Source of the DNA: Pristiophorus japonicus
Taxonomy: Eukaryota
NCBI RefSeq assembly: GCF_044704955.1
Contig: NC_091980.1
Location: 99,324,001 to 99,388,000 of the forward strand
Reading direction: 5' to 3'
DNA: 64,000 nt
How positions within the stretch are numbered: position 1 is the stretch's first letter; every line of letters begins with the position of its first letter. A program made the position numbers and the translations under genes. The notes beneath the pieces are model-generated. The model saw only the letters and a list, made by a program, of their open reading frames with translations. It searched no databases and was not told the DNA's origin. Of this stretch, positions 2,705-50,958 are shown piece by piece.

Positions 2705-4465
2705 GGGCTCAAATTTCCCTAGGAGTTGCCCCACTTTTTTTGGAGCAAGTAGCTTTTTTTGGAGTAACTTAAAAATCACAAATTTCCCCATTTAACTTGC
2801 TCCAGTGTAAGTCAGTTAGTTAGGTTTCTTTTTGGTTTTGTTTTTTTTCTCCAAAAAGGGGCGTGCCAGCCACTTATGCCTGTTTTGGCCATAAAAGCAA
2901 ATTTGGCCAGCTACAAGTTACTCCAAATTAACTTAGGCCAGTGTATGCAGCCACTTTTGTGGGCACAGAAAAACCTTATCTACATTTAAGAAATCAGCGT
3001 AGGTAGCCAGAGACGGGGGAGCGGGGGGTGGGGCAGGTGAGTTAGAGGATTTTAACGCACTAAACACCTTCACAGCATCAGCACAACATCAAAACAACTT
3101 CAGCACAACATCTTCACGACGGCATCAAAAATAAATGAAAGATAAATCAGCTACTGAAAATAGAGCAGTCCTGCCTTGCCGACTGCAGAACGCACTGGCT
3201 AGCCCTCCTACCAGGGCTAGGGGCAGCAGGCACACATGACTGTAGGGGTGAGGGATGTTTTTTTTTTACAGTTGTTCCTAAATGCTGTGTGGTGATAATG
3301 GAACATGATTTAGTTTTAATGCAAAATATCTTTTATTGGAAAGTTTACAATGCACTTCCACAACAACAAGAACAACAACAAGAACAACAGCAAAGAATGG
3401 CGGCTCCCATCTCTCACCCACATATCGGGAAATGTGCACTTCCTCATAGGGGCCGTGATGGTGGTGGGGCGGGGGGGGTTGGGGGCCCGGCTTGGGTCTT
3501 AACAGAGGCTGGTGTGGAGATTGCAGTGGGAGTGGCATTTGATTGTCAGGCCTGTGTGCCCTTATTGCAACAGCTAGCTCCCTCATGGCCTCTGCCATCA
3601 TTTGCACTCCCTCTGACATGCCCGCCCTCAGTTCCCGTCTCAGTGCTGATTATTCTCCTGTCAGTGTCGCAACCTCATCACGCACCCCACTGATGGTGGT
3701 CATGAGTGATCTTGTAAGGGCATTGGTCTCCTCACTCAATGACATAACCTGATATACATCTGATGAAGGCTGCATCTCAGGAGAGACTGGTCGACTTTTC
3801 CTTCCCCTCGCCGTGGGTCTACCTAGTGGCACCCCTCCATTGCGAGGCGCATGCTGAGAAGGTGGGGCCCTGTGTGTTCCAATCTGCATTCCACCACCAC
3901 CACTGGGACCCACAACCTCGGAAGGTGTGAAACCAAGGAATATCGTGGCAGAGCTCATGGAGGTGGCTGGCAAAGTGATGACCTGTACCATGGACTGATC
4001 CATATCACGATCATCACTTTCCCATGAACACAGATCCATGGACCGCTCCTCACCCCACCCGCCTTGATCTGGAGCGGATGCATCTGGATCTTCTTGTTGA
4101 TCTTCAGGATGTTCAGAATTATCTTCTTGTTCTGCAAAATACAACAGATCAGTCAAATAGTTGGTAGGAAAGGAGGGGGCAGGATGGGTGGAATGAGTAG
4201 TCTCACACGTAGCAGGCCAGTCAGCAGCTTGATTTGAAGGGCGACGATGCATTTTCTGATTGACTCTCACTCTCACGTGTGGATCCAGCTTGCGCAGATC
4301 TGATTCTTTTTCTGCAGGTGTGACTCAGCAAGGCAGCGACCCTCTGTTCCAGTGGTGATAGTTGGTGCAGATTTGGCAGCCCTCCTCCTGTTCTAGTTCT
4401 CTCCCTTTTGTTGTCGGCCAATTTCTTCTGCAAAGATGAAAATATAATTTTTGCCACATGGTAAG

Positions 4466-5080
4466 TGTTAGCGTGAATGTTTTCTCGGAAGAATCACTCA
4501 ACACTCAGAGTCGGTTCCAACGCCAATGTGGCCTTTATTTTCGCTAGTGGGGAGGAAGACTCAGGACTGGATTCAGGCACTTCTCTCCGACGAACAAAGA
4601 AACTCATCGATATTTATATGTTTTACAATAGTTCTTTACAGTTACTCAGCCCACTTCGGCTGGACACAATCCAATTATACTGATTATAAATTACATATAG
4701 GTTTCTTTAACCCAATAGAATTCTCCTGATATCTCAGGGGCTGTATGTTCGTTTTTTGTCAGCTCGGGCTGATTAATGACCTCGTTATGTGAGGTGGGCC
4801 CCCCCCCCCTTATCTCTGTTCCTCGGGCTCTGCTGTGTGAAGTCCTTAGTTTATAGTTATCTTGTCTGAAGTGAGTGAGCTAAGGCATTCCCGGTAGTGG
4901 GCCTTACAGGGCCATTGCTCGGTCAGCCCCAGTTCATTACTTGACTAACTGAGTTCCCATCATGCTTGGGCAGCCATTTTATATGTGGCCACTTTAAACT
5001 TATATGAGTTTAGATATATTCAGCAGGTGCCTAATGCCTAGTGCTTTGATATATTCAGCAGGTGCCTAATGCCTACAACA
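4466..5080 (-). repeat. 3' LTR
   Basis: TGTTG...TAACA on the minus strand, TATAAATA near 4612-4619 and AATAAA at 4534-4539. Direct repeat of 9002-9616. Confidence 0.95.
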
Positions 5081-5093
5081 ATTCCCTCCTTTC
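5081..5093 (-). promoter_or_regulatory. Polypurine tract
   Basis: Minus-strand GAAAGGAGGGAAT lies immediately before the TG of the 3' LTR. Confidence 0.85.
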
Positions 5094-5217
5094 GGTAAAG
5101 GGACTAGTCCTAGTCCCCCTTTAAACGACCACCCTACTTTTATAGATTTTGTGCACGGCCCGGTACTCCCTGCCTCAACGTGCTGGCCAGTCACGCGGTT
5201 TCAGGAGTCCCAGTTGC

Positions 5218-7309
5218 TTAAATCAAATTGACAAAGGCCAAATCCTCCTGCCCCCTTATTAGACAGGCTTGTTTAGTATTTGGGGACCGGTCATGGGTCC
5301 CTCTTCATTGTGCGTGATGCCTGCATGCCTGGCAGGCCATTATGCCCCATGTTATTGCTAAGATCAATTGTATCCCGACCAGTATGTGTGAAATTATTCG
5401 AATCCAAGGATGGATGTTCACATTTATTCCCCAGTCCCAGACCTTTCTCCACCAACTCTGACTTTGTAAGTCTACATCGATATCTTCTTCCAGTACTTTG
5501 ATTTTAGTTTGCAGTTGGTGGTAGAGCTTTACGGATTGACCCACCCTGAACCTCAATTCTCGTAATACTTCGGTTAGATGTGGGATAGGGACCCGGTCTG
5601 GCTCGTCATAATCCTGCAAATGATCATGGAGCTGATCGGTTACATCAATAACTTCGGGCTTCCGGCGCCTAACCTGGGTGATATGCGCTTGCCCGATCGC
5701 GACAGGGCGTAGCGGCGCAAAGCAAAAGTTCGGCTGTGGTATAGGGCACTGCAGGTCATTATACCGGTATGAACGCTCTGTGGTAGAGACGCAGTATCTT
5801 CCCTTCCCTCCGTAGCCTGCCCTCACGAAGTGCCTGTGTGCGGGCACTATTTCTAGTACACACCCGTCGGTTCGGTTAAACCCGCACTCGTCCAGCTCAC
5901 CTCGGCCTACCGGGTGAGGGCATATTGTGATCTACCCCCTTTGCTTGCATTCTGTTAGGCAAATTCCGGTAAGTATGTTGTTTCGACGAACGGCGGAGGT
6001 GGTGGTCAGATAGTAACGTATGGAGACATTTTCCCGTATTACTCCGATATTCTCTAGTTGGTACAGGGGGAACGGCCCTGAGTCCGGCGTGGCTATAGGG
6101 ATCATCAGGACTATCCCTATCCCAGTATTCCAACCATCTGGCAATCTGGAATTGCTGGGTATACTCGGGTCAGTCCCTTCAGAATACAATTATCCAGTGT
6201 CCCCCTCTGGTTAGCCAACTGAGCCAAATGTGAACTGTCTATCCAATCGGGTACTTCCCCGCGTTGGATCTGGTCGAGATTGTGGTGGATCTGTCCCACC
6301 ATCCACAGATCATAAGCGTGACAGAGTTGCCCCTGTCTTTGCTTTCCTGCATCTTCTTTTTCTCTATCAATGAGGTGATTGATGGTTTTGGCGTGAGCTT
6401 CCAGGACTGAGGTGCCATCCAACTGGATTTCGGCACCCTCCTTTCCTAGGTTGGCTTGGTCTTCCTGGTTTTGCTCCACCCTCTCTAATAACCCTTGTAT
6501 ATGTATAGAGTTTACTACGGAGGTCCCTGTATTGAAACCGGTAGCAACATCATTTACTATTCCCCTCTTTATCCTGGGGGCTGACCCTGTCCTCGGAATC
6601 TACTGGCACCCATTGCATCGGCAGCCTGCTGCATTACAACTTTACTTAATGCATTGTACATTTTCCTTGACTGTTTTGTACAGTATTCCGGCATCTGGAT
6701 GCCTGAAATATTGATCAGGACAGGCACAATTTCATGTTTAACATTATCATACAATAATTCCCCTTCGTTGTACATTACAATCCCATTTTCTGGTCCCTTA
6801 GTAGTTATGGGACAAGGCAGTTCCTCGGGCAATGTAGTGGTTCTTATGGGGCGTGGTGTCGGAGAGGGTGAGAAGCATACATACAATGATATTGCAGCCG
6901 CCCCCACCTCCTCGTAGTACCCACACAGCCCCACTCCCTTTTTGCGGATGACTGATTGCTGGGACTGTCCCGGAGGCGCGCAAATTATGCCGAAAGTACA
7001 TTCATCAGGCCCTTTGACATCCCTCCGTTTAATGCAGCTGCTCCTTATACCCGTGGAGCACTGTACACATACCCGGTTCTTATTAGGATTCAATTGTAAC
7101 CATGCATTAAAATAAGTCCTGTCCTTGCTCCAGTCCTTGGCTGCTGGGATGCACATTCCATCCGTTAAATTAAACAAGACTCCATAGTTCATGTAGTTAT
7201 TTATTTCCTGAGTGTGCTGCAATCCGTTGGTATCATCCAGTGTTTGAGTGGGTCTTGAGGTTCCCAGTATCATGAGTCCCCAGAGTTGAAGTCACCACTG
7301 CGGTCCCAT
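5218..7309 (-). pseudogene. env: Envelope / class I fusion glycoprotein (F-like), ~700 codons, 2 frameshifts and 3 stops
   Basis: Splice acceptor tttcag at 7327, aagATGg at 7309 and a signal-like N-terminus. Furin site RIKR|GIVNDVATGFNTGTSVVNS near 6565, heptad region, Cys-rich CLTECKQRGxITIC segment, second heptad, Trp-rich membrane-proximal region and TM (IISHILVGIQLILAITWGIMAC). Joins track ORFs 6569-7273, 6117-6479, 5932-6189 and 5305-5847. Confidence 0.85.
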
Positions 7310-7436
7310 CTTGGTGAGTATTTTATCTGAAAATTTTAAACAGATAGCCTGGTCATCACCAGGTGTTAGGTTCTGGTCTACTTGTGTCACTGTCACTCTG
7401 TGGAATCGGAGGTAAGGATTAGGTTAACCATATTCT

Positions 7437-7589
7437 TTATAGTCGTACCATCTCTATCACTTCATGTCCCTGTCTGGGCTGCCGTCGGTTTTGCGTTTGA
7501 GCCTGCTGTGCTCGAGTCTGCACGATGACCCATCTAAATATTATCCAAACTCCAATCAACACCAATGCCACCATTATTCCTCCAAACAT
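7437..7589 (-). CDS. 50-aa small transmembrane ORF (MFGGIMVALVLIGVWIIFRWVIVQTRAQQAQTQNRRQPRQGHEVIEMVRL)
   Basis: Translated by hand from ATG 7589 to TAA 7437. ~23 mostly hydrophobic residues followed by a Gln/Arg tail, on the same strand as env and 128 nt upstream of it. Confidence 0.5.
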   Translation of the reverse strand: MFGGIMVALVLIGVWIIFRWVIVQTRAQQAQTQNRRQPRQGHEVIEMVRL

Positions 7590-8193
7590 CGCTGTCTGCT
7601 TTACCGTTAGGTTGGGTTTGTGGACTACACCTACCCACCGTGGGGTACATTGGCTCTACTGCCATAGGTGATGGTGCTTTGGCTGCGCACTGCACTATCC
7701 GTCTAGTCCCGTTTTTTAAAACATCTCTTCCAGCCTGTTTATCTTAGCTTTAAACTCTTGACCAGCTAGTTCCATTTTATTCTTTTTTTTTAACCACCGG
7801 GACCATGTATTTTTTATCTTTTACTCAACAAACCTATCCTTTGTACATTTCCTAGCTCCATAACTTATCATCCAAATAAATCCACACCTGCGCTTCTAAC
7901 TTAAAATGTCTTAAAACTTCCCACATACAGGACAACACTACAAAGGGTTAAAACAATTTCACTCTGTTTAGAAAAGTGGGTGGAGCTAAAATAAACAGAC
8001 AGTTGCATTCCTCTTCCAACCAGGCTTTTGGAACCATGAAAACATAAAAAAATTCATTCCACAGTCAAAAAATCACACAAGGACTCTCAACGACAGACAT
8101 TCACAAAAGTCTCTCTTCATTCAACAAAGCTTATTAATTTTTTCTTTGGCCGGCTCTATTCTTGGATCCATACTTCACTTAAGATAATCACTA

Positions 8194-8451
8194 TCAGGTT
8201 TTTTTAAAATTTCTTACATATTGATTTACTTCCTCTGTTAGTTTTACGTGGGCTCGCAGTATCAAAACTACTGCCTTTTCCTCTTTGTCTTTCTTTTCCT
8301 TTTCCCACCATTCCCTTTGATTCGCTGGCAGGTCCTGAGGATCCCACCCTGCTCTAATAATTTTCTCGATTAGTTTCTTTTGTTTTTCCGCCAGGTGGCG
8401 GGTAAGGGACCCTTCTTGTCCCCACTCGAGGTTACTTGCTTTCGTGGCCAT
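8194..8451 (-). CDS. 85-aa ORF at the gag position, possible truncated Gag N-terminus
   Basis: First sizeable ORF after the PBS/leader, with a strong Kozak context (ggaATGG) and a charged, helical-looking sequence. Confidence 0.5.
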   Translation of the reverse strand: MATKASNLEWGQEGSLTRHLAEKQKKLIEKIIRAGWDPQDLPANQREWWEKEKKDKEEKAVVLILRAHVKLTEEVNQYVRNFKKT

Positions 8452-8981
8452 TCCTGGGTAGGACTAGAACCGTTAGGAATCTACTCTCAGAGGTCCGCTT
8501 TCTACCTAGCGTAACTTGTAGTAGACCGTCTCCTGGCTACTGTCAGGTCACAAGTTCTGCTGTTACACAAACTTATACAATTCTTAAAACGCGTTTAAGC
8601 AATTCCCGCAGTGCTCTACGTATCCTTAATGACTACCTACCACCGCTCTGCCCGTTGGTCCGACCCTGTTCACAGGTTTGGATTCCGTTAGCCGCTGTAC
8701 ACCGCTTGGTTTTACCCCGGAGTATATTTCAAATCACACTACTGGGTCCGGAAGATGTCTTTCGGTATCACGATCCCACGGTCCAAGTGTGTTCCCAGCA
8801 CCTACTTAGTTCCTGGCCGTCACGTGGGATTAAATTCCTCTTAATTCAGGCTCAGGCTAGGTTTTTGAGATATTGGACCGTCTCCTCGTGTCGATCAACC
8901 AGCATCCACCTTCCGCACCCGTTAAAAAAATTAGTTTAAGATATACTCATCCGGTTTCTCCAAGAGCGTCAGCGACCCCGA

Positions 8982-9000
8982 AATCCTGTTCGTGACGCCA
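8982..9000 (-). promoter_or_regulatory. Primer binding site, tRNA-Ser(CGA)
   Basis: Minus-strand TGGCGTCACGAACAGGATT, 1 nt inside the 5' LTR. It is complementary to the vertebrate tRNA-Ser(CGA) 3' end ...AATCCTGTTCGTGACG-CCA (recalled, not searched). Confidence 0.8.
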
Positions 9001-9001
9001 C

Positions 9002-9616
9002 TGTTAGCGTGAATGTTTTATCGGAAGAATCACTCAACACTCAGAGTCGGTTCCAATGCCAATGCGACCTTTATTTTCGCTAGCGGGGAGGAAGCCTCAG
9101 GACTGGATTCAGGCACTTCTCTCCGACGAACAAAGAAACTCATCGATATTTATATGTTTTACAATAGTTCTTTACAGTTACTCAGCCCACTTCGGCTGGA
9201 CACAATCCAATCACACCGATTATAAATTACATATAGGTTTCTTTAACCCAATAGAATTCTCCTGATATCTCAGGGGCTGTATGTTCGTTTTTTGTCAGCT
9301 CGGGCTGATTAATGACCTCGTTATGTGAGGTGGCCCCCCCCCCCCTTATCTCTGTTCCTCGGGCTCTGCTGTGTGAAGTCCTTAGTTTATAGTTATCTTG
9401 TCTGAAGTGAGTGAGTTAAGGCATTCCCGGTAGTGGGCCTCACAGGGTCATTGCTCAGTCAGCCCCAGTTCATTACTTGACTAACTGAGTTCCCATCATG
9501 CTTGGGCAGCCATTTTATATGTGGCCACTTTAAACTTATATGAGTTTAGATATATTCAGCAGGTGCCTAATGCCTAGTGTTTTGATATATTCAGCCGGTG
9601 CCTAATGCCTACAACA
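9002..9616 (-). repeat. 5' LTR
   Basis: About 17 substitutions versus 4466-5080 by eye (~97% identity). Contains a tandem gatatattcagcaggtgcctaatgccta duplication at the U3 end. Confidence 0.95.
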
Positions 9617-10431
9617 GTGAGCTTCTGATAGATGGGACATATACAGATGATCATATTTACAATTGCAATTCTATTTAAAACTCAAGATAATACTTACACT
9701 CACTACTTGACCAATGTCCTGCCATTTCTTTTTACACTGGCTTCCAGTTTTTGCAGTATTCACCCCTGCAGAGAATTATTCTGCAGCTAGGTTCCAGCGT
9801 TTCCTCATTTCTTTGGGTGGAACTTTTGTGGGACCACTCTTACTGATATCCAGCTCCTGCCATCTGTCCTCAATGACAGTGACTAGTTTCTCCACTTTCT
9901 CATGCAAGAAGTTCTTTGTTCTTGTTGCATGCTCTTGCGTCATTGGTGTATCGGGCTCACACTCAGGTAATGTTGAAAAAACACAGTTCTCACCTTGCAT
10001 GCACCTATGCAGCACTCCTTTCCACTCCCTCAGCCACGCAAAAATCAATATTAATATCTTACCTTCCAATATGGCCCACTGCCAATGCTGCTGATGCACT
10101 GAGGATGCTCTCCCGTTAAATAGCCGATTGCCAAGGTTCCAGGCCCGCGCGCATGCGCGCACGCTTCAACGCGAATTGCACATGTGCGCACGCACAAACG
10201 AACATGCGTCCCCCCGCCATCACTCGAAGACACGCTGGGCCCAAGCCCCACCCCCCTGCCGGTTGCGCTGAGCAAGTGTGACCCAAGCTCTGCCCCCCCC
10301 CAGATTTCGCAGCGCCACGCCACAGGATCACAGGGATCGAGGAGCGGCCAAATGATCCTGGTAAGTTTTCGGTGTGTTTTCTCCACCACGTCTAACTACG
10401 CTGCTCTAAGTGGCTGGGGAAATTTGGGCCC

Positions 10432-10992
10432 ATTGAGTGCAAAAGCAAGGAAGTTATGCTAAAACTTTATAAAACATTAGATGGGCTCCAGCTGGAATAT
10501 TGTGGCCAATTCTGGGCAGCACACTTTATGAAGAATGTCAAAGCCTTAGAGAGGGTGCGGAGGAAATTTACATTAATGGTACTAGGGATTAAAGACTTCA
10601 GTTACGTGGAGAAACTAGAGAAGCTGCAATAGTTCTTCTTAGAGCAGAGACAGTTAAGGGGAGATTTGATAGAGCTGTTCAGAATCATGAAGGGTATTGA
10701 TTGAGTAAATAAGGAAAGATCATTTCCAGTGGCGGAAGGGTTAGTAAGCATAGGGCATAGATTTGAGATCATTGGCAAAAGAACCAGAGAGCAGGAGGAA
10801 AATAATGTTTACATAGCAAGTTGTTTTGATCTGCCTGAAAAGATGGTGGGAGCAGATTTAATAGTAACTTTCAAAAGGGAATTAGATAAATTAGAATGGG
10901 ACTAATTGGATAACATTTTTCAAAATGCTGGCACAGGCATAATGTGCTGAATGGCCTCCTTATGTGCTGTATCATTCTATGACTCTATGATG
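10432..10992 (+). mobile_element. Old CR1 3' part (continuation of 2440-2704)
   Basis: Degenerate LEYC/RGDLIE-coding sequence and a ctatgactctatga tail. Confidence 0.75.
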
Positions 10993-16018: not shown

Positions 16019-17552
16019 AAGAGGTAGTCATGAGGCCAGGAGAACTGGGTATCATCAGCTTTCATGTCGAAACTCACCTTATGACTGCAGATGATGTCAT
16101 CAAGGGGTAGCATGTACATGAGGAATAGAAAAGGCCAAAGGATAGATCTTATAATCATATTACTAGAGATACATAACCCTGATATACACATCAGTAGAAA
16201 ATAAAATAAAACAAAACAGGCTAACTGATGGAAGGTAATTGATGGAAACTCGATGGTAACTCTGTGTGCTTACTGTTGTAAACCTGCGCAAAGTACACCA
16301 ATCCAGAAATACACCTCTTAATGCTTTCACATGCTTGAAGAAAGTGTGCATGTACCAGATGTGAAATGACATATACCATGATAGCATTTAAGCTTTTTTC
16401 TGAAATGTGCTGTTACATTCATGTTGCATGCAAACAATATTAATTGGGGTGAAACATTCCAGAATCCAGGGCAGTGTCACTTACTTGAGTCTCTGTAACA
16501 CCCTGCAGGCCTTTTATACTGAAGACTTCTACAATCTTCAACTCAGAGTTAACTCCATTAATTGTATGAATTCTTCATAAAATGCACAGTTGCTTTGACT
16601 GTTCAATGCTGTCTTTCCCTTGGTGGCCCTCTTTACATCATTGAATGGTTCTTTGAACCTTGCCAGGTCCTTTCATTCCTGGGAATTTGATGCAACTATC
16701 AAACAACTCCACCCAGGCCTCTCTCTGGTTTTGAAATTCTTTGACTTGGCCTCTGTGCCAAGGACGATTGTACTCTGTACAAGGTTTTTTGCCACCATCG
16801 GTTTTAACTTTTGTTTGTTGATCCTGGGCTTTGTTCTTTCCTCCTCTGGGACAATGTGTTATTTTGTAACCAGCTCTGCCATCAGTAATATTTGATATAA
16901 TTATTACTGAGAAGGATCAGGAGCTTTGTAATTTTCTTGCTCAGATGCTGAACAATGATTATGAATAAAAGTGGTGCTTACCAATGTAAATAATGTTCAA
17001 TCTACTCGATGGTAACTCTGTGGGCTTACTGCTGTAAACTTGCAAAGTACACCAATCCAGAAATACACCTCTTAATGCTTTCACATGCTTAAAGAAAGTG
17101 TGCATTGGAAATTCAAGCCTAGCTTACTTGCTACATTACCTAACGTATTACTAATATGTCAATATTTACATCCACTGTCATTCTACAGCTTGCATAAACC
17201 AAATGAGTATGTGTATTATTTACAAAGAAAAATTATACACTATAGGATCTCAACTATAGGCAAATTAGTGATTAGATTATAACACAAGTTCCTTGATTTC
17301 AGAAAAAAAAGGGCAGGAATATCATACATGAGGAGTGGGAGCTGACCTCATCCGATTTCTCATGGTCAGCGAATTTAAATTATCATGTGTTTCCTTAACA
17401 TAACCAAGGGAGTACTATGCTGAAAATGGGCAGGGAATGAGGCAGAACAGTGGATTTTAAATGGGCTGCTGCTCTTTTGAACCATTGCTGTTTGTCATGA
17501 CTAAATTGGGCTGCAAAAATGGAATCTCACCAAGCTCGAGAATAGAACTAGA

Positions 17553-20254
17553 AACATAGAAACATAGAAAATAGGTGCAGGAGCAGGCCATTCAGCCCTT
17601 CTAGCCTGCACCGCCATTCAATGAGTTCATGGCTGAACATGAAACTTCAGTACCCCCTTCCTGCTTTCTCGCCATAACACTTGATCCACCGAGTAGTAAG
17701 GACTTCATCTAACTCCCTTTTGAATATATTTAGTGAATTGGTCTCAACTACTTTCTGTGGTAGAGAATTCCACAGGTTCACCACTCTCTGGGTGAAGAAG
17801 TTTCTCCTCATCTCGGTCCTAAATGGCTTATCCCTTATCCTCAGACTGTGACCCCTGGTTCTGGACTTCCCCAACATTGGGAACATTCTTCCTGCATCTA
17901 ACCTGTCTAAACCCGTCAGAATTTTAAACGTTTCTATGAGGTCCCCTCTCATTCTTCTGAACTCCAGTGAATACAAGCCCAGTTGATCCAGTCTTTCTTG
18001 ATAGGTCAGTCCCGCCATCCCGGGAATCAGTCTGGTGAATCTTCGCTGCACTCCCTCAATAGCAAGAATGTCCTTCCTCAAGTTAGGAGACCAAAACTGT
18101 ACACAATACTCCAGGTGTGGCCTCACCAAGGCCCTGTACAACTGTAGCAACACCTCCCTGCCCCTGTATTCAAATCCCCTCGCTATGAAGGCCAACATGC
18201 CATTTGCTTTCTTAACCGCCTGCTGTACCTGCATGCTAACCTTCAATGACTGATGTACCATGACACCCAGGTCTCGTTGCACCTTCCCTTTTCCTAATCT
18301 GTCACCATTCAGATAATAGTCTGTCTCTCTGTTTTTACCACCAAAGTGGATAACCTCACATTTATCCACATTATACTTCATCTGCCATGCATTTGCCCAC
18401 TCACCTAACCTATCCAAGTCACTCTGCAGCCTAATAGCATCCTCCTCGCAGCTCACACTGCCACCCAACTTCGTGTCATCCGCAAATTTGGAGATACTGC
18501 ATTTAATCCCCTCGTCTAAATCATTAATGTACAATGTAAACAGCTGGGGCCCCAGCACAGAACCTTGCGGCACCCCACTAGTCACTGCCTGCCATTCTGA
18601 AAAGGACCCGTTTACTCCTACTCTTTGCTTCCTGTCTGACAACCAGTTCTCAATCCACGTCAGCACACTACCCCCAATCCCATGTGCTTTAACTTTGCAC
18701 ATTAATCTCTTGTGTGGGACCTTGTCGAAAGCCTTCTGAAAGTCCAAATATACCACATCAACTGGTTCTCCTTTGTCCACTTTACTGGAAACAATCCTCA
18801 AAAAATTCCAGAAGATTTGTCAAGCATGATTTCCCTTTCACAAATCCATGCTGACTTGGACCTATCATGTCACTATTTTCCAGATGCACAGCTATGACAT
18901 CCTTAATAATTGATTCCATCATTTTACCCACTACTGAGGTCAGGCTGACCGGTCTATAATTCCCTGTTTTCTCTCTCCCTCCTTTTTTAAAAAGTGGGGT
19001 TACATTGGCTACCCTCCACTCCATAGGAACTGATCCAGAGTCAATGGAATGTTGGAAAATGACTGTCAATGCATCCGCTATTTCCAAGGCCACCTCCTTA
19101 AGTACTCTGGGATGCAGTCCATCAGGCCCTGGGGATTTATCGGCCTTCAATCCCATCAATTTCCCCAACACAATTTACCGACTAATAAAGATTTCCCTCA
19201 GTTCCCCCTCCTTACTAGACCCTCTGACCCCCTTTATATCCGGAAGGTTGTTTGTATCCTCCTTAGTGAATACCGAACCAAAGTACTTGTTCAATTAGTC
19301 TGCCATTTCTTTGTTCCCCGTTATGACTTCCCCTGATTCTGACTGCAGGGGACCTACGTTTGTCTTTACTAACCTTTTTCTCTTTACATACCTATAGAAA
19401 CTTTTGCAATCCACCTTAATGTTCCCTGCAAGCTTCTTCTCGTACTCCATTTTCCCTGCCCTAATCAAACCCTTTGTCCTCCTCTGCTGAGTTCTAAATT
19501 TCTCCCAGTCCCCGGGTTCGCTGCTATTTCTGGCCAATTTGTATGCCACTTCCTTGGCTTTAATACTATCCCTGATTTCCCTAGATAGCCACGGTTGAGC
19601 CACCTTCCCTTTTTTATTTTTACGCCAGACAGGAATGTACAATTGTTGTAATTCATCCATGCGGTCTCTAAATGTCTGCCATTGCCCACCCACAGTCAAC
19701 CCCCTAAGTATCATTCGCCAATCTATCCTAGCCAATTCACGCCTCATACCTTCAAAGTTACCCTTCTTTAAGTTCTGGACCATGGTCTCTGAATTAACTG
19801 TTTCATTCTCCATCCTAATGCAGAATTCCACCATATTATGGTCACTCTTCCCCAAGGGGCCTCGCACAATGAGATTGCTAATTAATCCTCTCTCATTACA
19901 CAACACCCAGTCTAAGATGGCCTCCCCCCTAGTTGGTTCCTCAACATACTGGTCTAGGAAACCATCCCTTATGCACTCCAGGAAATCCTCCTCCACCGTA
20001 TTGCTTCCAGTTTGGCTAGCCCAATCTATGTGCATATTAAAGTCACCCATTATAACTGCTACACCTTTATTGCATGCACCCCTAATTTCCTGTTTGATGC
20101 CCTCCCCAACATCCCTATTACTGTTTGGAGGTCTGTACACAACTCCTACTAACGTTTTTTGCCCTTTGGTGTTCTGCAGCTCTACCCATATAGATTCCAC
20201 ATCATCCAAGCTAATGTCTTTCCTAACTATTGCATTAATCTCCTCTTTAACCAA
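17553..20254 (-). mobile_element. CR1-A, 5'-truncated, ORF2 (APE endonuclease + RT) with frameshifts/stop
   Basis: GVVYRPP, MGDFN, SDH, KSPGPDG, NYRPVSLT, GVPQGSVLGP and KFADD motifs; (catagaaa)n tail. Confidence 0.97.
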
Positions 20255-20271
20255 CTGCCCCCTTAAAGAAG

Positions 20272-21157
20272 AATATAAGATTTAAGAGCAGGAGTAGGCC
20301 ACCTGTCACCTTGAGCCTGCTCCCACATTTAATAAGTTCATGGCTGATCTGATCATGGACTCTGCTCCACTTCCCTGCCCACTCCCCATACCCTTTATTC
20401 TCTTATCGCTCCAAAATCTGTCCATCTCCGCCTTAAATATATTCAATGACCCAGCCTCCAGAGCTCTCTGGGGCAGAGAATTCCACAGATTTACAACCCT
20501 CTGAGAGAAGGAATTCCTCCTCATCTCTGGTTTAAATGGGCGGCCCCATATTCTGAGACTATGTCCCCTAGTTTTAGTTTCCCCTATGTGAAAATATCCT
20601 CTCTGCATCCACCTTGTCGAGACCCCTCATTATCTTATATGTTTCGATAAGATCACCTCTCATTCTTCTGAACTCCAATGTGTATAGGTCCAACCTACTC
20701 AACCTATCCTCGTAAATCAACCAAGTGAATCTTCTCTGAACAGCCTCCAATGCAAGTTTTTCCTTCCTTAAATACGGAAACCAAAGCTGTATGCAGTACT
20801 CTAATTGTGACCTCACCAATACCCTATACAGTTGTAGCAGGACTTCCCTGCCTTTATACTCTATCTCCCTTGCAATAAAGGCCAACATTCCATTTGCCTT
20901 CCTGATTACTTGCTCTACCTGCATACTATCTTTTTGTGTTTCATGCACAAGGATCCCCAGGTCCCTCTGTACTGTGGCACTTTGCAATTTTTCTCCATTT
21001 AAATTATAATTTCCTTTTCTATTTTTCCTGCCAAAGTGGATAACCTCACATTTTCCCACATTATCCTCCATCCGCCAAACTTTTGCCCACTCACATAGAC
21101 TGTCTATATCTCTTTGCAGATTTTTTGTGTCTTCCTCATAATTTGCTTTCCCACCCA
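20272..21157 (-). mobile_element. CR1-B 3' part (continues at 26484-26860)
   Basis: RT C-terminal motifs. The break ...ttcccaccc | atctttgtatc rejoins as DDTKxGGKA. Confidence 0.88.
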
Positions 21158-21884
21158 TAAGAACATAAGAACATAAGAACATAAGAATTAGGAACAGGAG
21201 TAGGCCCTCTAGCCCCTCGAGCCTGCTCCGCCATTCAATAAGATCATGGCTGATCTGGCCGTGGATTCAGCTCCGCTTACCCGCTCGTTCCCCATAACCC
21301 TTAATTCCCTTATTGGTTAAAAATCTATCTATCTGTGACTTGAATACATTCAATGAGCTAGCCTCAACTGCTTCCTTGGGCAGAGAATTCCACAGATTCA
21401 CAACCCTCTGGGAGAAGAAATTCCTTCTCAACTCGGTTTTAAATTGGCTCCCCCGTATTTTGAGGCTGTGCCCCCTAGTTCTAGTCTCCCCGACCAGTGG
21501 AAACAAGCTCTCTGCCTCTATCTTGATTATCCCTTTCATTATTTTAAATGTTTCTATAAGATCCCCCCTCATCCTTCTGAACTCCAACGAGTAAAGACCC
21601 AGTCTACTCAATCTATCATCATAAGGTAACCCCTCATCTCCGGAATCAGCCTCATGAATCGTCTCTGTACCCCCTCCAAAGCTAGTATATCCTTCCTTAA
21701 GTAAGGTGACCAAAACTGCACGCAGTACTCCAGGTGCGGCCTCACCAATACCCTATACAGTTGAAGCAGGACCTCCCTGCTTTTGTACTCCATCCCTCTC
21801 GCAATGAAGGCCAACATTCCAGTCACCTTCCTGATTACCTGCTGCACCTGCAAACTAACTTTTTTTGGGATTCATGCACAAGGA

Positions 21885-22589
21885 TGCAACAAATTTTTAA
21901 GCCGGTTCACGGACTCCCAGGCCGCCTGCAATTTCTGCGGTCTGGAGGAGTCCGTGTTCCATGTTTTTATTGAGTGCACGAGGTTGCAGCCTTTGTTCCA
22001 TTATTTGAAGGGGCTGCTCCTGAAATTCTGGCTGCACTTCAGTCCCACTCTCCTGATCTTTGGGCACCCTGTGCAGAGGGGAGCGGGTAGGTCCGAAGGC
22101 CTCCTCGTAGGACTGCTCCTGGGCACGGCCAAGGGTGCCATCAGCCGGTCCAGGCAGCGGGCGGTCGAGGGGGTCGTTCAACCTGACTGCCTGCCTCTCT
22201 TCCGCTCTTACATCCGGTCCAGGGTGTCCTTGGAGATGGAGCACGCGGTGTCCACCGGTACGCTCGCGGCCTTCCGCGAGAGGTGGGCACCGGAGGGACT
22301 GGAGTGCATCATCACGCCCGGCAACCAAATTTTAATTTGATTTTACGTTTTAAAGTTTAATTTGTTTTAATTGCTAGTGTTTTTAGTGTCCCCTTCCCTT
22401 TTATAGGGGGCACTGTGGAAAAATTGTGATTTTAGTGCCCAAAAAAAAACCAAAAAAAGAAAAACAAAAAAACCCCCCAAAAAAAACCAAAAAAAGGAAA
22501 AAAAGGGCCTTGTAAATGTCTGGTGTGTCACCCAGGTCGGGTGGCACGGTTTAATGTTTTATGTTTTGCAGATAAACTCCAAAAAGAGT
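21885..22589 (+). mobile_element. Tx1-clade LINE, 5'-truncated, with 14-bp TSD
   Basis: CNFCGLEESVFHVFIEC zinc finger (zf-RVT type), A-rich 3' UTR, and TSD ttcatgcacaagga at 21871-21884 and 22590-22603. Confidence 0.88.
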
Positions 22590-24985
22590 TTCATGCACAA
22601 GGACCCCAGGTCCCTCTGCACCGCAGCATGTTGTAATTTCTCCCCATTCAAATAATATTCCTTATTACTGTTTTTTTTCCCAAGGTGGATGACCTCACAC
22701 TTTCCGACATTGTATTCCATTTGCCAAACCTTAGCCCATTCGCTTAACCTATCTAAATCTCTTTGCAGCCTCTCTGTGTCCTCTACACAACCCGCTTTCC
22801 CACTAATCTATGTGTCATCTGCAAATTTTGTTACACGACACTCTGTCCCCTCTTCCAGGTCATCTATGTATATTGTAAACAGTTATGGTCTCAGCACCGA
22901 TCCCTGTGGCACACCACTAACCACCGATTTCCAACCCGAAAAGGACCCATTTATCCCGATTCTCTGCTTTCTGTTAGCCAGCCAATTCTCTATCCATGCT
23001 AATACATTTCCTCTGACTCCGCGTACCTTTTTCTTCTGCAGTAACCTTTTGTGTGGCACCTTATCGAATGCCTTTTGGAAATCTAAATACACCACATCCA
23101 TCGCTACACCTCTATCCACCATGCTTGTTATATCCTCAAAGAATTCCAGTAAATTAGTTAAACATGATTTTCCCTTCATGAACCCATGTTGCGTCTGCTT
23201 GATTGCACTATTCCTATCTAGATGTCCCGCTATTTCTTCCTTAATGATAGTTTCAAGCATTTTTCCCACTACAGATGTTGAACTAACCAGCCTATAGTTA
23301 CCTGCGTTTTGTCTGCCTCCTTTTTTAAACAGAGGCGTTACATTAGCTGCTTTCCAATCTGCTGGTACCTCCCCAGAGTCCAGAGAATTTTGGTAGATTA
23401 TAACGAATGCATCTGCTATAACTTCCATCATCTCTTTTAATACTCTGGGATGAATTTCATCAGGACAAGGGGACTTGTCTACCTTGAGTCCCATTCGCCT
23501 GTCCAGCACTACCCGCCTAGTGATAGTGATTGTCTCAAGGTCCTCCCTTCCCACATTCTTGTGACCAGCAATTTTTGCCATGGTTTTTGTGTCTTCCACT
23601 GTGAAGACCGAAGCAAAATAATTGTTTAAGGTCTCAGCCATTTCCACATTTCCCATTATTAAATCCCCCTTCTCATCTTCTAAGGGACCAACATTTACTT
23701 TAGTCACTCTTTTCCGTTTTATATATTTGTAAAAGCTTTTACTATCTGTTTTTATGTTTTGCGCAAGTTTACTTTCGTAATCTATCTTTCCTTTCTTTAT
23801 TGCTTTCTTAGTCATTCTTTGCTGTCGTTTAAAATTTTCCCAATCTTCTAGTTTCCCACTAACCTTGGCCACCTTATACGCATTGGTTTTTAATTTGATA
23901 CACTCCTTTATTTCCTTGGTTATCCACAGCTGGTTATTCCTTCTCTTACCGCCCTTCTTTTTCACTGGAATATATTTTTGTTGAGCACTATGAAAGAGCT
24001 CCTTAAAAGTCCTCCACGGTTCCTCAATTGTGCCACCATTTAGTCTGTGTTTCCAGTCTACTTTAGCCAACTCTGCCCTCATCCCACTGTAGTCCCCTTT
24101 GTTTTAGCATTGTATGCTCGTTTGAGACACTACTTCCTCACCCTCAATCTGTATTACAAATTCAACCATACTGTGATCACTCATTCCGAGAGGATCTTTT
24201 ACGAGGAGATCGTTTATTATTCCTGTCTCATTACACAGGACCAGATCTAAGATAGCTTGCTCCCTTGTAGGTTCTTTAACATACTGTTCTAAGAAACAAT
24301 CCCGTATGCATTCTATGAATTCCTCCTCCAGGCTACCCCGTGCGATTTGATTTGACCAATCGATATGTAGGTTAAAATCCCCCATGATTACTGCCGTTCC
24401 TTTTTCACATGCCTCCATTATTCCCTTGATTATTGCCTGCCCCACTGTGAAGTTATTATTTGGGGGCCTATAAACTATGCCCACCAGTGACTTTTTCCCC
24501 TTACTATCTCTAATCTCCACCCACAATGATTCAACATTTTCTTCATTCGAGCCAATATCGTCTCTCACAACTGCCCTGATATCATCCTTTATTAACAGAG
24601 CTACCCCACCTCCTTTCCCTTCTTGTCTATCTTTCCGAATTGTCAGATACCCCTGTATGTTTAATTCCCAGTCTTGGCCACCCTGCAACCACGTTTCTTT
24701 AATGGCCACCAAATCATACCCATTTGTAATGATTTGTGCTGTCAACTCATTTACTTTATTTCGAATGCTGCGTGCGTTTCGGTAGAGTGTTTTAATACTA
24801 GTTTTTAATCCCATGATTTTTAGTTTTGACCCCTCCTGCAGCCCCTTTATATTCAGTGGCCCTTTTTGTTTTTTGCCTTGGGTTTTTCTGCCCTCCACTT
24901 TTACTCATCTCCTTTCTGTCTTTTGCTTTTGTCTCCTTTTTGTTTCCCTCTGTCTCCCTTTATTGGTTCCCATCACCCTGCCATA

Positions 24986-25932
24986 TTAGTTTAAATCCTC
25001 CCCAACAGCACTAGCCAACACTCCCCCTAGGACATTGGTTCTGGTCCTGCCTAGGTGCAGACCGTCCGGTTTGTACTGGTCCCACCTCCCCCAGAACCGA
25101 TTGCAATGCCCCAGGAATTTGAATCCCTCCCTGCTGCACCACTGCTCAAGCCACGTATTCATCTGAGCTATCCTGTGATTCCTACTCTGACTAGCACATG
25201 GCACTGGTAGCAATCCCGAGATTACTACTTTTGAGGTCCCACGTTTTAATTTAGCTCCTAGCTCCTTAAATTCGTCTCATAGGACCTCATCCCTTTTTTT
25301 ACCTATATCGTTGGTACCAATGTGCACCACGACAACTGGCTGTTCACCCTCCCTTTTAAGAATGTCCTGCACCCGCTCCGAGACATCCTTGACCCTTGCA
25401 CCAGGGAGGCAACATACCATCCTGGAGTCTCGGTTATGGCCGCAGAAACGCCTATCTATTCCCCTTACAATCGAATCCCCTATCACTATCACTCTCTCAC
25501 TCTTTTTCCTGCCCTCCTGTGCAGCAGAGCCACCCACGGTGCCATGAACTTGGCTGCTGCTGCCCTTCCCTGATGAGTCATGCCCATCAACAGTACTCAA
25601 AACGGTGTATCTGTTTTGCAGGGGGAGGACCGCAGGGGACCCCTGCACTACCTTCCTTGCACTGCTCTTCTTGCTGGTCTTCCATTCCCTAGCTGGCTGT
25701 GTATCCTTCACCTGCGGTAAGACCAACTCGCTACACGTGCTACTCATGTCATTCTCAGCATCGTGGATGCTCCAGAGTAAATCCACCCTCAGCTCCAATT
25801 CCACAACGCGGACCGTCAGGAGCTGGAGGCGGATACATTTCCCGCACACGTAGTCGTCAGGGACACCGGAAGTGTCCCTGAGTTCCCACATGTACAGGAG
25901 GAGCATATCACGTGACCGTGCTCTCCTGCCAT
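24986..25932 (-). pseudogene. CR1 ORF1 (zinc finger + SGNH/GDSL esterase)
   Basis: YVCGKC, VIGDSIVRG, CLPGARV, HIGTND and DGLHL motifs; interrupted by a stop and frameshifts. Confidence 0.9.
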
Positions 25933-26114
25933 GACTTAATCCTTAGATACACTTAAATTGGCAACAACAATGCTGAAGTTTACTCACTGTTATAGAAGAG
26001 AGAAAAGAAATACTACTCACCAATCACCAGCCAATCACTTACCCCCTTGGCTGTGACATCACCTTTCTGTTTCTTTCTACTTCTTTTTTGCCTTCCCCCT
26101 GTAGCTGCACAAGC

Positions 26115-26480
26115 CTCTCACCGAACTTGCGCTGTTCCTGGTCTCACTGGCCTTTATAGGCCTTTCGCCGACCCCGGACTCACGCCTCTTGCCGAACTCG
26201 CGCTGCGCCCAATCTCACTGGCCTTTTGTAGGCCTCTCCGATCCCCGGAACTCCCGCCTCTCGCCGAACTCGTGCTGCTCCGGTCGCACTGGCCTTTTTT
26301 AGGCCTCTCTGATCCCCGGAACTACCGCCTCTCGCCGAACTTGCGCTGCTCCTGGTCTCGCTGGCCTTTTGTAGGCCTCTCCGATCCCCAGAACTCCCGC
26401 CTCTCGCCGAACTCGTGCTGCTCCTGGTCTTGCTGGCCTTTTGTAGGCCGCTCTGATCCCTGGAACTCCCGCCTCTCGCG
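26115..26480 (-). repeat. ~71-bp GC-rich tandem monomers (about 5 copies) at the CR1-C 5' end
   Basis: Unit ctctcgccgaactcg...ctggcctttt(g)taggcctctccgatccccggaactcccgc, starting near 26115, 26185, 26257, 26328 and 26400. Confidence 0.9.
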
Positions 26481-26483
26481 GGA

Positions 26484-26860
26484 TCTTTGTATCTTCAGGA
26501 AACTTGGCTACATAACACTCAATTCTTTCATTCAAGTCATTAATATCGATTGTAAATAGTTGAAGACCCAGCACCAATCCATGTGGCATCCCACTAGTCA
26601 CTGTTTGCCAACCGGAAAATGACCCATTTATCCTGACTCTCTGTTTTCTGTTAGTTAGCCAATCCTCTATCCATGCTAATATATTACCCCCAACCCCATG
26701 AACTTTTAGCTTGTGCAGTAACCTTTTATGTGGCACCTTATTGAATGTCTTCTGGAAATCCAAATACACCATGTCCACTGGTTCCCCCTTATCCACCCTG
26801 CTCATTACATCCTCAAAGAATTCAAGCAAATTTGTCAAACATGATTTCCCTTTCATAAAA
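26484..26860 (-). mobile_element. CR1-B 5' part
   Basis: MKGKSCLTNLLEFFED...VAKFPEDTK. Confidence 0.88.
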
Positions 26861-27775
26861 AAAAATGAAGAAATTAGGTGCTCAATTTTCCCCAGTTATC
26901 TGCGCCGTTTCTTTGGCGTAAATTAAGATATCCAAATTTCCCCAAACTTTCTGCGCCAGAGTAACTCAGTTAGTTACAATTTTTTTCGGTTAGTATTTTT
27001 TTGCGTAACCTGATGTCGGCATCAGTTTTTCACATTTAAGTCAGTATGGCTAACTTACATTTCTCCTAGGACGGCATACGTGACCTCTCCCCAAAAAAAC
27101 TTCTGGGCACTTATGAAAAACCAGCGCACATTAAAAAAATCGGTGCAGAAAGATACCATTGTTTTTATGCAAAGTTCTGGCAGGAGTCAAGAAGACAAAG
27201 AATATGCATAATGAAGCATAATTCTTTCAAAGTCAAAGGGAGAAAATGGAAGTCTGATGCAATTCTTCTATTTTTGATTTTTTTCAAAGTACCTCGCCAC
27301 CACCGAACATCTCCTCACCGGACTCGAGCCCCGAGCCCCTGGACACAGCGGCTCGAGGCTTGGCTTCAAAAGAAGCCTGGGGGGAGTGGACGCGAACTGA
27401 AAGGATAAGAACCCTTATACATACAGCAGTTTCAAAAGAAGCCCGGGGGAGGGGGGTTGGTGTGGATGCCGAACCCCTGTGTCTGGGCGAAGAAGCGATT
27501 CTGCCAGCCAACTCTCGAGCCCAGTGAGGAGACGTTCAGTCGGTGGTGGGGTGATACTTTGAAAAAATCTAAAATTAAAGAATTGCATTAGACTTCATTG
27601 CCCCAAATGTCTTCATTGAATGCCTAGCTTCCCGTTCTAAGCAAGCCTATTGCACATGCGCAGACCAGGGTATGGTCCATACTAGGGCATCGACCTTGGG
27701 GACAGAGAGAGAGGAAAGAAGGTTTAAGTCCTTTGTCCTGCTGTTTTGAGCTTCTTGCAAAGGTACAATTTAATT

Positions 27776-35314: not shown

Positions 35315-35861
35315 ATTGACTTCAATAGAAAGTAAAAATCAGGCGAGGTGTATAATGGACGGCCAATCAAGTAGTGCCCATTTTACACCCCTACCCAACA
35401 TGAATGTTCCATCCACTGACTTTGATTCAGAAATGCAATGCAAATTGGTCCAGTAGAAGGGGCAGTTGATTCTGAGCAGGCGGCTTAAGAAATACTTACT
35501 TCTGTTCTTCCCCAAGGTGGGCAAATTATGGAAGTATAGAGAACAATGGCAGGTGAAATTTAAGGGCTAATCTGAAATGTTACACTTGGAGAACAGTCCC
35601 TTACCGGCATCAGAAAGATAGGCCTTAGCGCACTCAGTGCTAAACTGCTGATTCTGGAAGACAAAGTTCTTTTCCATTTTTGAGGTAGTGCTATAGACCG
35701 CACTAACCTTATTAGACCTCATAAAATTGTGAACAAACATTATGATAGGTCCCATAAATGAATTATCCAAGCTGTTCTGCAGCATGACACCTCATTCCCT
35801 GAATGTTGTATAAAACAAGCATTTGGAGACCTGCAAACCAAAGCTTGATCTAAAGCTCTAG

Positions 35862-37725: not shown

Positions 37726-38048
37726 TCTATTTTAGCTCGGTTTTATTTTTACTGTTCTTAATTTCATCAATAGAACTTTTTACTTTAGAGCTAATGCCAT
37801 TTTTTTCTGCTGCTTTTCTGCATTTCAGCATGCCTTTGGTTCACCACCAGCAGTAGCATTTTTGCTGCTCCCAGTTGTCACTCTCACCTTAAGCACTATG
37901 CTTAGCTTTGGATTCCACTGCACTCACTGACTATTCTGAATTTGGAGAAGAGGAATTCCTGCTAAAGGAGGGAAGACAGATACACTTGCATCTCAGATAT
38001 CTGGCTCCCACCAGCAGGCAGCCCAGAACTAATGTGATACAACTCAAT

Positions 38049-49550: not shown

Positions 49551-49987
49551 TATAGGCACCAAATTCGGGCAAATATCTGGCTGGTAACAGCTAATTTTTT
49601 TTTCCCAATTTGCTTAAAGCTCTAAACTCTTCCTCCTTCCTCCCAAAGCAGCCATACGACACCCACACATGCTTTCACTCCCTCTCAGCTCCCTCTCTAT
49701 CTGTCTCCTCTTCTGCGCATGTCATGATGATCCTTGACCTCCTGAATCGCAGGAATCGAGCGTTGCCATGCCGTTGCTAAGGACGGCGACACTTTACGGC
49801 AGAAAGTCAGAGAGATTTAACGCTACCACCCATTTCATATCGCTCGCAGTAACACCCAATTTCAAAAATGGAGACTAGGGGCTTTGAGAATGGGCGACAT
49901 GCCGGCGATCTGAAAACCCATTTTTACCGCCCACGCCGGAAATAACGCCCATTTTTAGGCGATATGCACAAAATTGTAAAATCTAGC

Positions 49988-50958
49988 AAGGAAATAAAGG
50001 AGAGTCTCAAATTAAAGACCAATGCGTATAAGGTGGCCAAGGTTAGTGAGAAAATAGAAGATTGGTAAAATTTTAAACGATAGCAAAGAATGACTAAGAA
50101 ATCAATAAAGAAAGGAAAGATAGATTACGAAGGTAAACTTGCGCAAAACATAAAAACAGATAGTAAAAGCTTTTACAGATATATAAAACGGAAAAGAGTG
50201 ACTAAAGTAAATGTTGGTCCCTTAGAAGATGAGAAGGGGGATTTAATAATGGGAAGTGTGGAAATGGCTGAGACCTTAAACAATTATTTTGCTTCGGTCT
50301 TCACAGTGGAAGACACAAAAACCATGCCAAAAATTGCTGGTCACAGAAATGTGGGAAGGGAGGACCTTGAGCCAATCACTATCACTAGGGGGGTAGTGCT
50401 GGACAGGCTAATGGGACTCAAGGTAGACAAGTCCCCTGGTCCTGATGAAATGCATCCCAGGGTATTAAAAGAGATGGCGGAAGTTATAGCAGATGCATTC
50501 GTTATAATCTACCAAAATTCTCTGGACTCTGGGGAGGTACCAGCGGATTGGAAAGCAGCTAATGTAACGCCTCTGTTTAAAAAAGGGGGCAGACAAAAGG
50601 CAGGTAACTATAGGCCAGTTAGTTTAACATCTGTAGTGGGGAAAATGCTTGAAACTATCATTAAGGAAGAAATAGCGGGACATCTAGATCGGAATAGTTC
50701 AATCAAGCAGACGCTTGGATTCATGAAGGGGAAATCATGTTTAACTAATTTACTGGAATTCTTTGAGGATATAACGAGCATGATGGATAGAGGTCTACCG
50801 ATGGATGTGGTGTATTTAGATTTCCAAAAGGCATTCGATAAGGTGCCTCACAAAAGGTTACTGCAGAAGATAGAGGTATGTGGAGTCAGAGGAAATGTAT
50901 TAGCATGGATAGAGAATTCGCTGGCGAACAGAAAGCAGAGAGTCAGGATAAATGGGTC
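49988..50958 (+). mobile_element. CR1 (CR1-C family), 5' part of a split copy
   Basis: The 290-aa ORF is nearly identical to 22883-23920. The copy resumes at 55028. Confidence 0.93.

What the first reader, a model, noticed from the sequence alone, without database searches (positions are those of the whole stretch)
4466..9616. Compact pol-less LTR element whose main cargo is an F-type fusion glycoprotein
Seen: complete cis-elements (LTRs, 5-bp TSD, PBS, PPT, env splice acceptor) around only 3.9 kb, over half of it env, with no protease, RT or integrase trace. Known: typical vertebrate gamma-type Env has CXXC/CX6CC and an immunosuppressive domain. F-like Envs occur in insect errantiviruses and have been reported for lokiretroviruses. 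This protein lacks CX6CC and has a long Cys-rich post-cleavage subunit (~450 aa), as F proteins do. Inference: a non-autonomous or satellite endogenous virus that supplies envelope and borrows Gag-Pol in trans, possibly one half of a split genome. Non-autonomous LTR elements usually lose env, not pol.
Basis: partly seen in the sequence, partly recalled or inferred. Interest (0 to 1): 0.88.

Follow-up and report, generated by a model that had tools for sequence, protein, structure and literature searches.

The report
Pol-less shark retrovirus with dead envelope
This is one of about 1,500 polymerase-less copies of a shark endogenous retrovirus that likely spread by borrowing enzymes from a much rarer complete virus; its envelope gene is predicted to fold like measles-type fusion proteins, but it was already broken in the copies that multiplied, so it likely rode along as cargo rather than serving a partner.

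Summary
The anatomy is confirmed: 615-bp LTRs (97.4% identical), a 5-bp target duplication proven by empty sites, a tRNA-Ser(CGA) primer site, no pol, and env filling 53% of the interior. The Env core is F-type (Foldseek: RSV F E=3e-11; no CX6CC). The element transposed without pol: exact markers count 1,594 pol-less filler and 1,450 env sites against 38 RT sites, and 50 of 81 sampled copies have exact 4-5 bp duplications. A full-length gag-pro-pol-env provirus with the same LTR, leader and env exists; its RT is nearest snakehead retrovirus, not lokiretroviruses. Two inferences fail. It is not half of a split genome: 18 of 20 RT loci carry env. It does not supply envelope: this copy's subfamily shares a signal-peptide stop (183 of 196 sites), and the youngest subfamily shares an early frameshift (29 of 32). 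The 3.9-kb compactness is a private 1.6-kb deletion. Best reading: a recKoRV/bovine-D-type-like parasite whose non-coding core repeatedly took env and LTRs from helpers. An older pol-less lineage with an open signal peptide leaves early envelope supply possible. This scan noted SnRV-clade shark proviruses with F-like Env before, in other genomes.

The parts
9002..9616 (-). 5' LTR, 615 bp; TATA-like 9148-9154, AATAAA 9070-9075
4466..5080 (-). 3' LTR, 97.4% identical to the 5' LTR
9617..9621 (.). target site duplication, upstream copy (matches empty alleles)
   Evidence: 9 of 9 empty alleles
4461..4465 (.). target site duplication, downstream copy, one mismatch
8983..9000 (-). primer binding site, tRNA-Ser(CGA)
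8944..8960 (-). leader splice-donor site, mutated in this copy; donor function inferred from sequence
8197..8451 (-). gag N-terminus (~85 codons, matrix-like position), then stops
7590..8196 (-). remnant of the A-rich non-coding filler that replaces capsid-to-integrase in the pol-less family; ~1.6 kb of it deleted in this copy at 7779-7787
7437..7589 (-). 50-codon ORF with one hydrophobic segment; diverged homologue of a ~66-codon ORF between integrase and env in the full-length provirus
7327..7405 (-). two candidate env splice acceptors (7398-7405, 7327-7336), untested
5218..7309 (-). broken F-type env: subfamily-wide stop in the signal peptide (7292-7294), furin site 6564-6575, 42-nt in-frame deletion just after the fusion peptide (shared by 22 of 42 copies), two 1-nt deletions, stops at 5932-5934 and 5305-5307
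5081..5093 (-). polypurine tract

Best explanation
The element is a dead copy of a pol-less, env-bearing family that shares LTR, leader and env with a rare full-length shark provirus whose RT is likely of the snakehead-retrovirus clade, and it likely multiplied as a parasite of that provirus, its RNA being packaged, reverse-transcribed and integrated by helper Gag-Pol while its predicted F-type env was already inactivated and likely travelled as cargo. Shown: shared cis-elements, replacement of capsid-to-integrase by a non-coding filler, many independent insertions, about 40 filler sites per RT site, founder env lesions. Inferred: trans-mobilisation; co-packaging with template switching, which would explain why one filler is found with at least two env lineages (78% identical), three signal peptides, several U3 regions and two primer sites. 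Why env DNA is kept is not shown; likely reasons are cis-acting RNA signals or length in the 3' half and repeated refreshing from helper RNA.
For: Full-length LTR-gag-PR-RT-tether-RH-IN-env-LTR at 9 of 14 loci picked for long gag frames. No capsid or pol match inside any of 40 pol-less elements or the 38 of 40 printed (the two cut rows have 4.9-kb interiors). Markers: filler 1,594, env 1,450, RT 38, controls 0. TSDs: 32 exact 5-bp, 18 exact 4-bp, 7 with one mismatch, 9 none, 15 ends not found, of 81; 47 distinct words. Signal-peptide stop in 44 of 44 sampled A/B-type copies and 183 of 196 genome-wide, while two neighbouring degenerate positions vary in only 6 and 12 of 100 listed. Subfamily C: shared early frameshift in 29 of 32, a further shared stop in 11. 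39 of 63 A-versus-helper env differences lie in the first 46 codons: mosaic. Fold. Precedent: PMC10924933 passages.
Against: Shared env variants among pol-less copies are depleted of replacements (N/S 69/60 versus 369/161 for singletons, p=0.0008; subfamily C 51/72 versus 147/73, p=8e-6). I attribute this to import from helpers, but it would also follow from env selection in pol-less templates. 13 of 196 sites have an open signal peptide; the 6 examined are pol-less, older, 4 of 6 with a full-length env 76-78% identical to subfamily A, and 25 of their 28 frameshifts are private. 3 of 32 subfamily-C copies are in frame at the shared site and one is open throughout. The RT marker is one 21-mer from one lineage and would miss diverged helpers. 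No young helper matching subfamily C's age was seen among 29 pol-bearing loci.
Confidence: 0.78

Rival explanations
1. Two-stage history: the ancestral pol-less element did supply a working Env to mixed particles (mutual complementation) and kept it under selection; later, env-dead mutants took over the amplification.
For: Older pol-less lineage with open signal peptide, divergent env and mostly private lesions; N/S 74/178 between that env and subfamily A; the gag-pol interval is unrecognisable while env and the small ORF stay readable; low N/S of shared variants.
Against: The same six copies share lesions near codons 537-555 (stop in 4, 1-nt deletion in 3); divergence between env lineages could all have accrued in helpers; helpers carry their own env; subfamily D also stops early (open 153-157 codons in 3 of 3).
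Confidence: 0.15
2. Split (bipartite) genome: env-only and gag-pol-only halves depend on each other.
For: Pol-less env-bearing copies are abundant; one gag-plus-partial-pol copy without env and two RT loci without env exist.
Against: 18 of 20 RT loci carry env (13 nearly complete); the env-less ones are truncated fragments, none a clean LTR-gag-pol-LTR. Amplified pol-less env is broken.
Confidence: 0.03
3. Single post-insertion deletion of an ordinary provirus.
For: This copy has a private 1.6-kb deletion.
Against: The deleted stretch is filler, not pol; over a thousand loci share the filler with distinct TSDs.
Confidence: 0.01
4. Stop read-through, re-initiation or a truncated secreted Env fragment gives the pol-less env a residual function such as receptor interference.
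For: Subfamily C would still encode signal peptide plus ~70 residues; two A/B copies are open from an inner Met.
Against: The inner-Met frame has no hydrophobic leader (best 9-mer 0.17 versus 3.03 for the helper signal peptide); 22 of 42 also lack 14 codons of the first heptad region; singleton N/S is near neutral.
Confidence: 0.05

Closest known systems
Bovine ERVK[2-1-LTR] D-type, koala recKoRV, mouse ETn/MusD (PMC10924933; passages read)
   Same: Defective morph shares LTRs and flanking gag and env portions with a competent morph, central segment swapped for other sequence, outnumbers the helper, recombines with it.
   Different: Here a shark class III-like virus, about 40:1 by markers, nearly whole env retained, serial env/U3/PBS exchange; trans-complementation is inferred, not measured; filler origin unresolved.
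Snakehead retrovirus (SnRV) clade, incl. elephant-shark CmiERV lineage I (PMC4422223 part 1 of 2 read; PMC12193657, PMC2717909, PMC4977317 passages)
   Same: Helper RT nearest the SnRV row (hand count 91 of 190 positions); gag and pol in one frame; small accessory ORF before env; no N-terminal myristoyl Gly.
   Different: Two zinc knuckles (SnRV one, PMC2717909); short Env tail (SnRV 136 aa, PMC12193657); tRNA-Ser primer (SnRV Arg, recalled). Homology with SnRV Env itself was not tested.
Lokiretroviruses (PMC7947760; parts 1-2 of 4 and supplement part 68 read)
   Same: F-like Env with RxKR, fusion peptide, coiled coil, TM; tether plus RNase H.
   Different: RT lacks Loki motifs (74 of 190 to Loki-Ame by hand count); tether-RNase H matches MLV, with no foamy RT-RH among the best 60, whereas Loki RH groups with foamy; no smc ORF seen; Loki not reported in Chondrichthyes in that paper.
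Paramyxo-/pneumovirus F, baculovirus F, foamy Env (PMC11468914 passages) and walleye epsilonretrovirus Env models
   Same: Predicted fold of the 486-aa core matches RSV F, hPIV3 F; BFVD also lists WEHV1 (9e-12), WDSV (2e-7) and feline foamy Env (1e-5).
   Different: Identity 10-16%, no Pfam or PDB sequence match; extra ~150-aa Cys-rich N-terminal domain; TM-scores 0.4-0.5 from a pLDDT-65 monomer model.

Membership tests
Helper-dependent defective ERV morph (recKoRV / bovine D-type / ETn kind) | Shares LTR, PBS, leader and PPT with a competent provirus in the same genome | tested here: met
Helper-dependent defective ERV morph (recKoRV / bovine D-type / ETn kind) | Central gag-pol segment replaced by non-homologous sequence, gag and env flanks kept | tested here: met
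Helper-dependent defective ERV morph (recKoRV / bovine D-type / ETn kind) | Independent insertions with distinct TSDs | tested here: met
   50 exact of 81, 47 distinct
Helper-dependent defective ERV morph (recKoRV / bovine D-type / ETn kind) | Filler derives from an older retroelement | tested here: inconclusive
   only a weak gag-N-like match (E 0.03 or worse) and a diverged small-ORF homologue at its 3' end
Helper-dependent defective ERV morph (recKoRV / bovine D-type / ETn kind) | Mobilisation depends on the competent morph | not testable with these tools
   inferred from absence of pol
Split (bipartite) retroviral genome | Complementary env-less gag-pol partner class | tested here: not met
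   18 of 20 RT loci carry env
Split (bipartite) retroviral genome | env open in the templates of the pol-less half | tested here: not met
   older lineage inconclusive
F-type (paramyxo/pneumo-like) class I fusogen | Furin site, fusion peptide and heptad region, long Cys-rich beta region, second helix, TM | tested here: met
F-type (paramyxo/pneumo-like) class I fusogen | Fold match to solved F structures | tested here: met
   RSV F 3e-11; all 41 listed rows are F proteins; PF00523 cluster 0.92
F-type (paramyxo/pneumo-like) class I fusogen | Sequence-profile match to PF00523 or PF12259 | tested here: not met
   one relative has Baculo_F at E=0.001, below cut-off
Gamma-type retroviral Env | CX6CC and immunosuppressive domain in a short TM subunit | tested here: not met
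Lokiretrovirus | RT falls in the Loki clade | tested here: not met
   hand comparison: 91/190 SnRV, 74/190 Loki-Ame; no tree with references
Lokiretrovirus | RNase H groups with foamy viruses | tested here: not met
   MLV/XMRV RNase H best; foamy RT-RH absent from best 60
Lokiretrovirus | Integrase related to CGIN1 | not tested
   no reference at hand; weak MLVIN_C match
Lokiretrovirus | F-like Env | tested here: met
SnRV-like clade | RT groups with SnRV | tested here: inconclusive
   nearest of the rows compared by eye; phylogeny with references not run
SnRV-like clade | Small accessory ORF(s) besides gag, pol, env | tested here: met
   ~66-codon TM ORF in 4 of 4 full-length copies printed
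SnRV-like clade | Env homologous to SnRV Env | not tested
   no SnRV Env sequence was returned by any search

The most novel reading that the evidence does not exclude
A long-lived retroviral satellite: one non-coding core has persisted across successive helper viruses, each time capturing their env, LTR and primer site, and in its oldest form it contributed a working F-type envelope to mixed particles before env-dead cheaters displaced it; its youngest subfamily, many copies with identical LTRs, is still being mobilised in this shark, and F-type Env is the ancestral envelope of SnRV-clade and epsilon retroviruses.
Probability: 0.15. Interest if true: 0.8.

Novelty: new variant of a known kind. 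Interest (0 to 1): 0.5.

Why it matters
It extends the recKoRV/bovine-D pattern of 'parasites of parasites' to cartilaginous fish and a class III-like virus, at a ratio near 40:1 and with a very young wave (median LTR divergence 0.003). It shows that retained env DNA in a pol-less ERV need not mean envelope supply. It adds an orthoretrovirus-like lineage, with Env relatives in sharks, a skate, frogs and coelacanth, to the retroviruses with F-type envelopes; I found this in print only for loki- and foamy viruses (searches). With the walleye-virus matches this bears on whether F-type Env is ancestral in Retroviridae.

Full report
Observation. The element lies on the minus strand with 615-bp LTRs at 9002-9616 and 4466-5080 that differ at 16 sites. 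The flanking five-mers differ at one base, but the element sits in a high-copy repeat (3,231 candidates) and 9 of 9 other copies show the five-mer once. The PBS matches a tRNA-Ser(CGA) gene. Env spans 7309-5218, 53% of a 3,921-nt interior. No pol domain is present. The host is a shark by inference: the nearest Env relatives are shark proteins at 58-91% identity. LTR divergence of 0.027 gives 6 Myr at the mammalian rate or 60 Myr at the shark rate assumed in PMC4422223, so the age is loose.

The family. A search of the own genome scored 40 of 9,666 candidates; 39 loci were fetched. Most have 4.6-5.6-kb interiors; this copy lost a further ~1.6 kb at 7779-7787. What it lost is not pol but part of a 2.4-kb A-rich filler (38% A) without gag-pol homology. 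Exact 21-mer counts are 1,594 for the filler, 1,450 for env, 587 for this subfamily's small ORF and 38 for RT, with zero controls; these are lower bounds and the RT marker sees one lineage. Forty env loci on contig C1 without this subfamily's marker were taken in listed order: none of the 38 printed has capsid or pol inside the element, the two cut rows have 4.9-kb interiors, and 32 form a second subfamily, C, with the same filler but helper-type signal peptide and another U3. Of 81 pol-less loci, 50 have exact 4- or 5-bp TSDs (47 distinct), 7 one mismatch, 9 none, 15 had no callable ends. Median LTR divergence is 0.027 for A/B (35 copies), 0.003 for C (29, many identical pairs), 0.032 for D (4) and 0.05 for six full-length copies. 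So the family transposed without pol, in several waves.

The helper. Fourteen loci chosen mainly for long gag frames gave nine 9.2-9.5-kb proviruses with the same LTR, PBS and leader, and env 86-90% identical. They encode gag with zinc knuckles, protease, RT, tether, RNase H and integrase and a ~66-codon membrane ORF before env. Of 20 further RT loci, 13 carry nearly all of env, 5 part of it, and 2 are truncated fragments without it. One locus has gag and partial pol without integrase or env. No amplified env-less partner was seen, so a split genome is not supported. RT scores 146 bits to MLV, 140 to foamy and 81 to Ty3 structures. Against the RT alignment in the supplement of PMC7947760, my hand count gives 91 of 190 identities to SnRV and 74 of 190 to Loki-Ame; tether-RNase H is MLV-like, while Loki RNase H groups with foamy viruses. 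I file the helper as likely SnRV-clade, without a reference tree.

The envelope. It has no CX6CC or ISD, one RxKR, 462 residues and 14 Cys after cleavage. Sequence libraries give no significant match. A profile search found 55 relatives; the 18 looked up include sharks, a skate, three frogs and coelacanth. The language-model search ranks a PF00523 cluster first (0.92). An AlphaFold model of the 486-aa core from 47 sequences (pLDDT 64.6, pTM 0.47) matches RSV F (3e-11) and hPIV3 F (2e-10) in PDB, and in BFVD mononegaviral and baculoviral F as well as WEHV1, WDSV and feline foamy Env. The F-type call stands, as a prediction.

Does the pol-less element supply Env? Mostly not. All 44 sampled A/B-type copies, this one included, stop within the first six env codons; genome-wide 183 of 196 sites carry that stop, far more than the 6-12% variation at neighbouring degenerate positions, so it was inherited. 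The next in-frame Met has no hydrophobic leader. 22 of 42 copies also share a 42-nt deletion after the fusion peptide. In subfamily C, 29 of 32 share a frameshift near codon 66 and 11 a further stop; three are in frame there and one is open throughout. Three D-type copies end after 153-157 codons. Against this: shared variants are depleted of replacements. The mosaic pattern explains much of that: 39 of 63 A-versus-helper differences fall in the first 46 codons, and 8 of 13 A-versus-B differences are at codons that also separate A from the helper. A real caveat is the 13 open sites: the six listed ones are pol-less, carry the filler, and mostly have an older env about 78% identical to A, with 25 of 28 frameshifts private but lesions near codons 537-555 shared by 3-4 copies. 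Whether that lineage had a working Env is undecided.

Mechanism. Shown: cis-elements, loss of pol, amplification, a complete helper, founder lesions, mosaicism. Inferred: pol-less RNA is packaged and copied by helper Gag-Pol; co-packaging lets RT switch templates, so the filler core picks up new env, U3 and PBS. Both primer types, Ser(CGA) and Ser(AGA), occur in helpers and in pol-less copies. Retention of env DNA (filler and env counts are nearly equal) likely reflects cis needs or refreshing by recombination; not tested.

Known analogues. PMC10924933 (passages) describes bovine ERVK C/D morphs and cites recKoRV and ETn/MusD as sharing a central swap with gag and env flanks kept. F-like Env is published for lokiretroviruses (PMC7947760) and foamy viruses (PMC11468914 passages). 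Passages of 10.1101/2021.11.05.467493 leave epsilon Env unclassified; 10.1101/2021.11.23.469661 (part 1 and passages) screened only gamma- and beta-type Env. PMC12440569 (part 1), PMC13709493, PMC12583693, PMC13524379, PMC11521997 and 10.1101/2024.03.17.585361 (passages) added nothing on SnRV-clade Env. Nine paper searches showed no report of this family, within an open-access library. Three earlier scan notes report similar proviruses in other genomes; I had reached the reading before seeing them and they are not independent proof.

Verdict. Real, well-bounded and F-type, but a new variant of a known kind: a helper-dependent defective ERV with a dead envelope. Interest 0.5.

Noticed in passing
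G000 C36 (L180) and C23 arrays; PBS of L031-L179: Primer switch: the Ser(CGA) tRNA motif has 1 match in the genome, the Ser(AGA) motif 1,111, many in ~1.95-kb tandem arrays; the youngest subfamily uses the abundant type (27 of 29).
   Followed up: partly
filler 3' end, window ~7740-7800 and L031-L159: A weak match to the gag N-terminus (E 0.03 or worse) at the same place in many fillers: the filler may be the leader and gag start of an older relative.
   Followed up: partly
P0028, P0053, P0034, P0046 versus this Env: The N-terminal domain differs among relatives (Ig-like label or weak V-set match versus Cys-rich here), suggesting receptor-binding-domain exchange on an F core.
   Followed up: no
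BFVD hits Q9WHI8, A4GTG3: Walleye epsilonretrovirus Env models match the F-type core better than foamy Env does.
   Followed up: no
P0052 cluster: Sixteen near-identical Env-like proteins, most 677 aa, in the frog Mantella aurantiaca: a recent expansion of a relative.
   Followed up: no
window 2866-4465 and 9617-10453: Host site is a high-copy repeat with spliced-looking ORF pieces that resemble a Harbinger Myb/SANT gene (recalled; no Pfam hit).
   Followed up: partly
window 8406-8939 (+): Antisense frame of ~173 codons over the leader, open in many copies; selection not tested.
   Followed up: no
L126/L127, L048, L146, L100/L102, L106/L108/L110: Tandem or segmentally duplicated proviruses; these are not independent insertions.
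   Followed up: partly
window 17549-27000, 35848-37726, 49987-56089: Several copies of an abundant LINE-like repeat with short tandem tails; CR1 identity recalled, not tested.
   Followed up: no
window 26113-26496 and 61857-62963: A 71-72-bp tandem array, and a 160-nt 99% direct repeat 947 nt apart.
   Followed up: no
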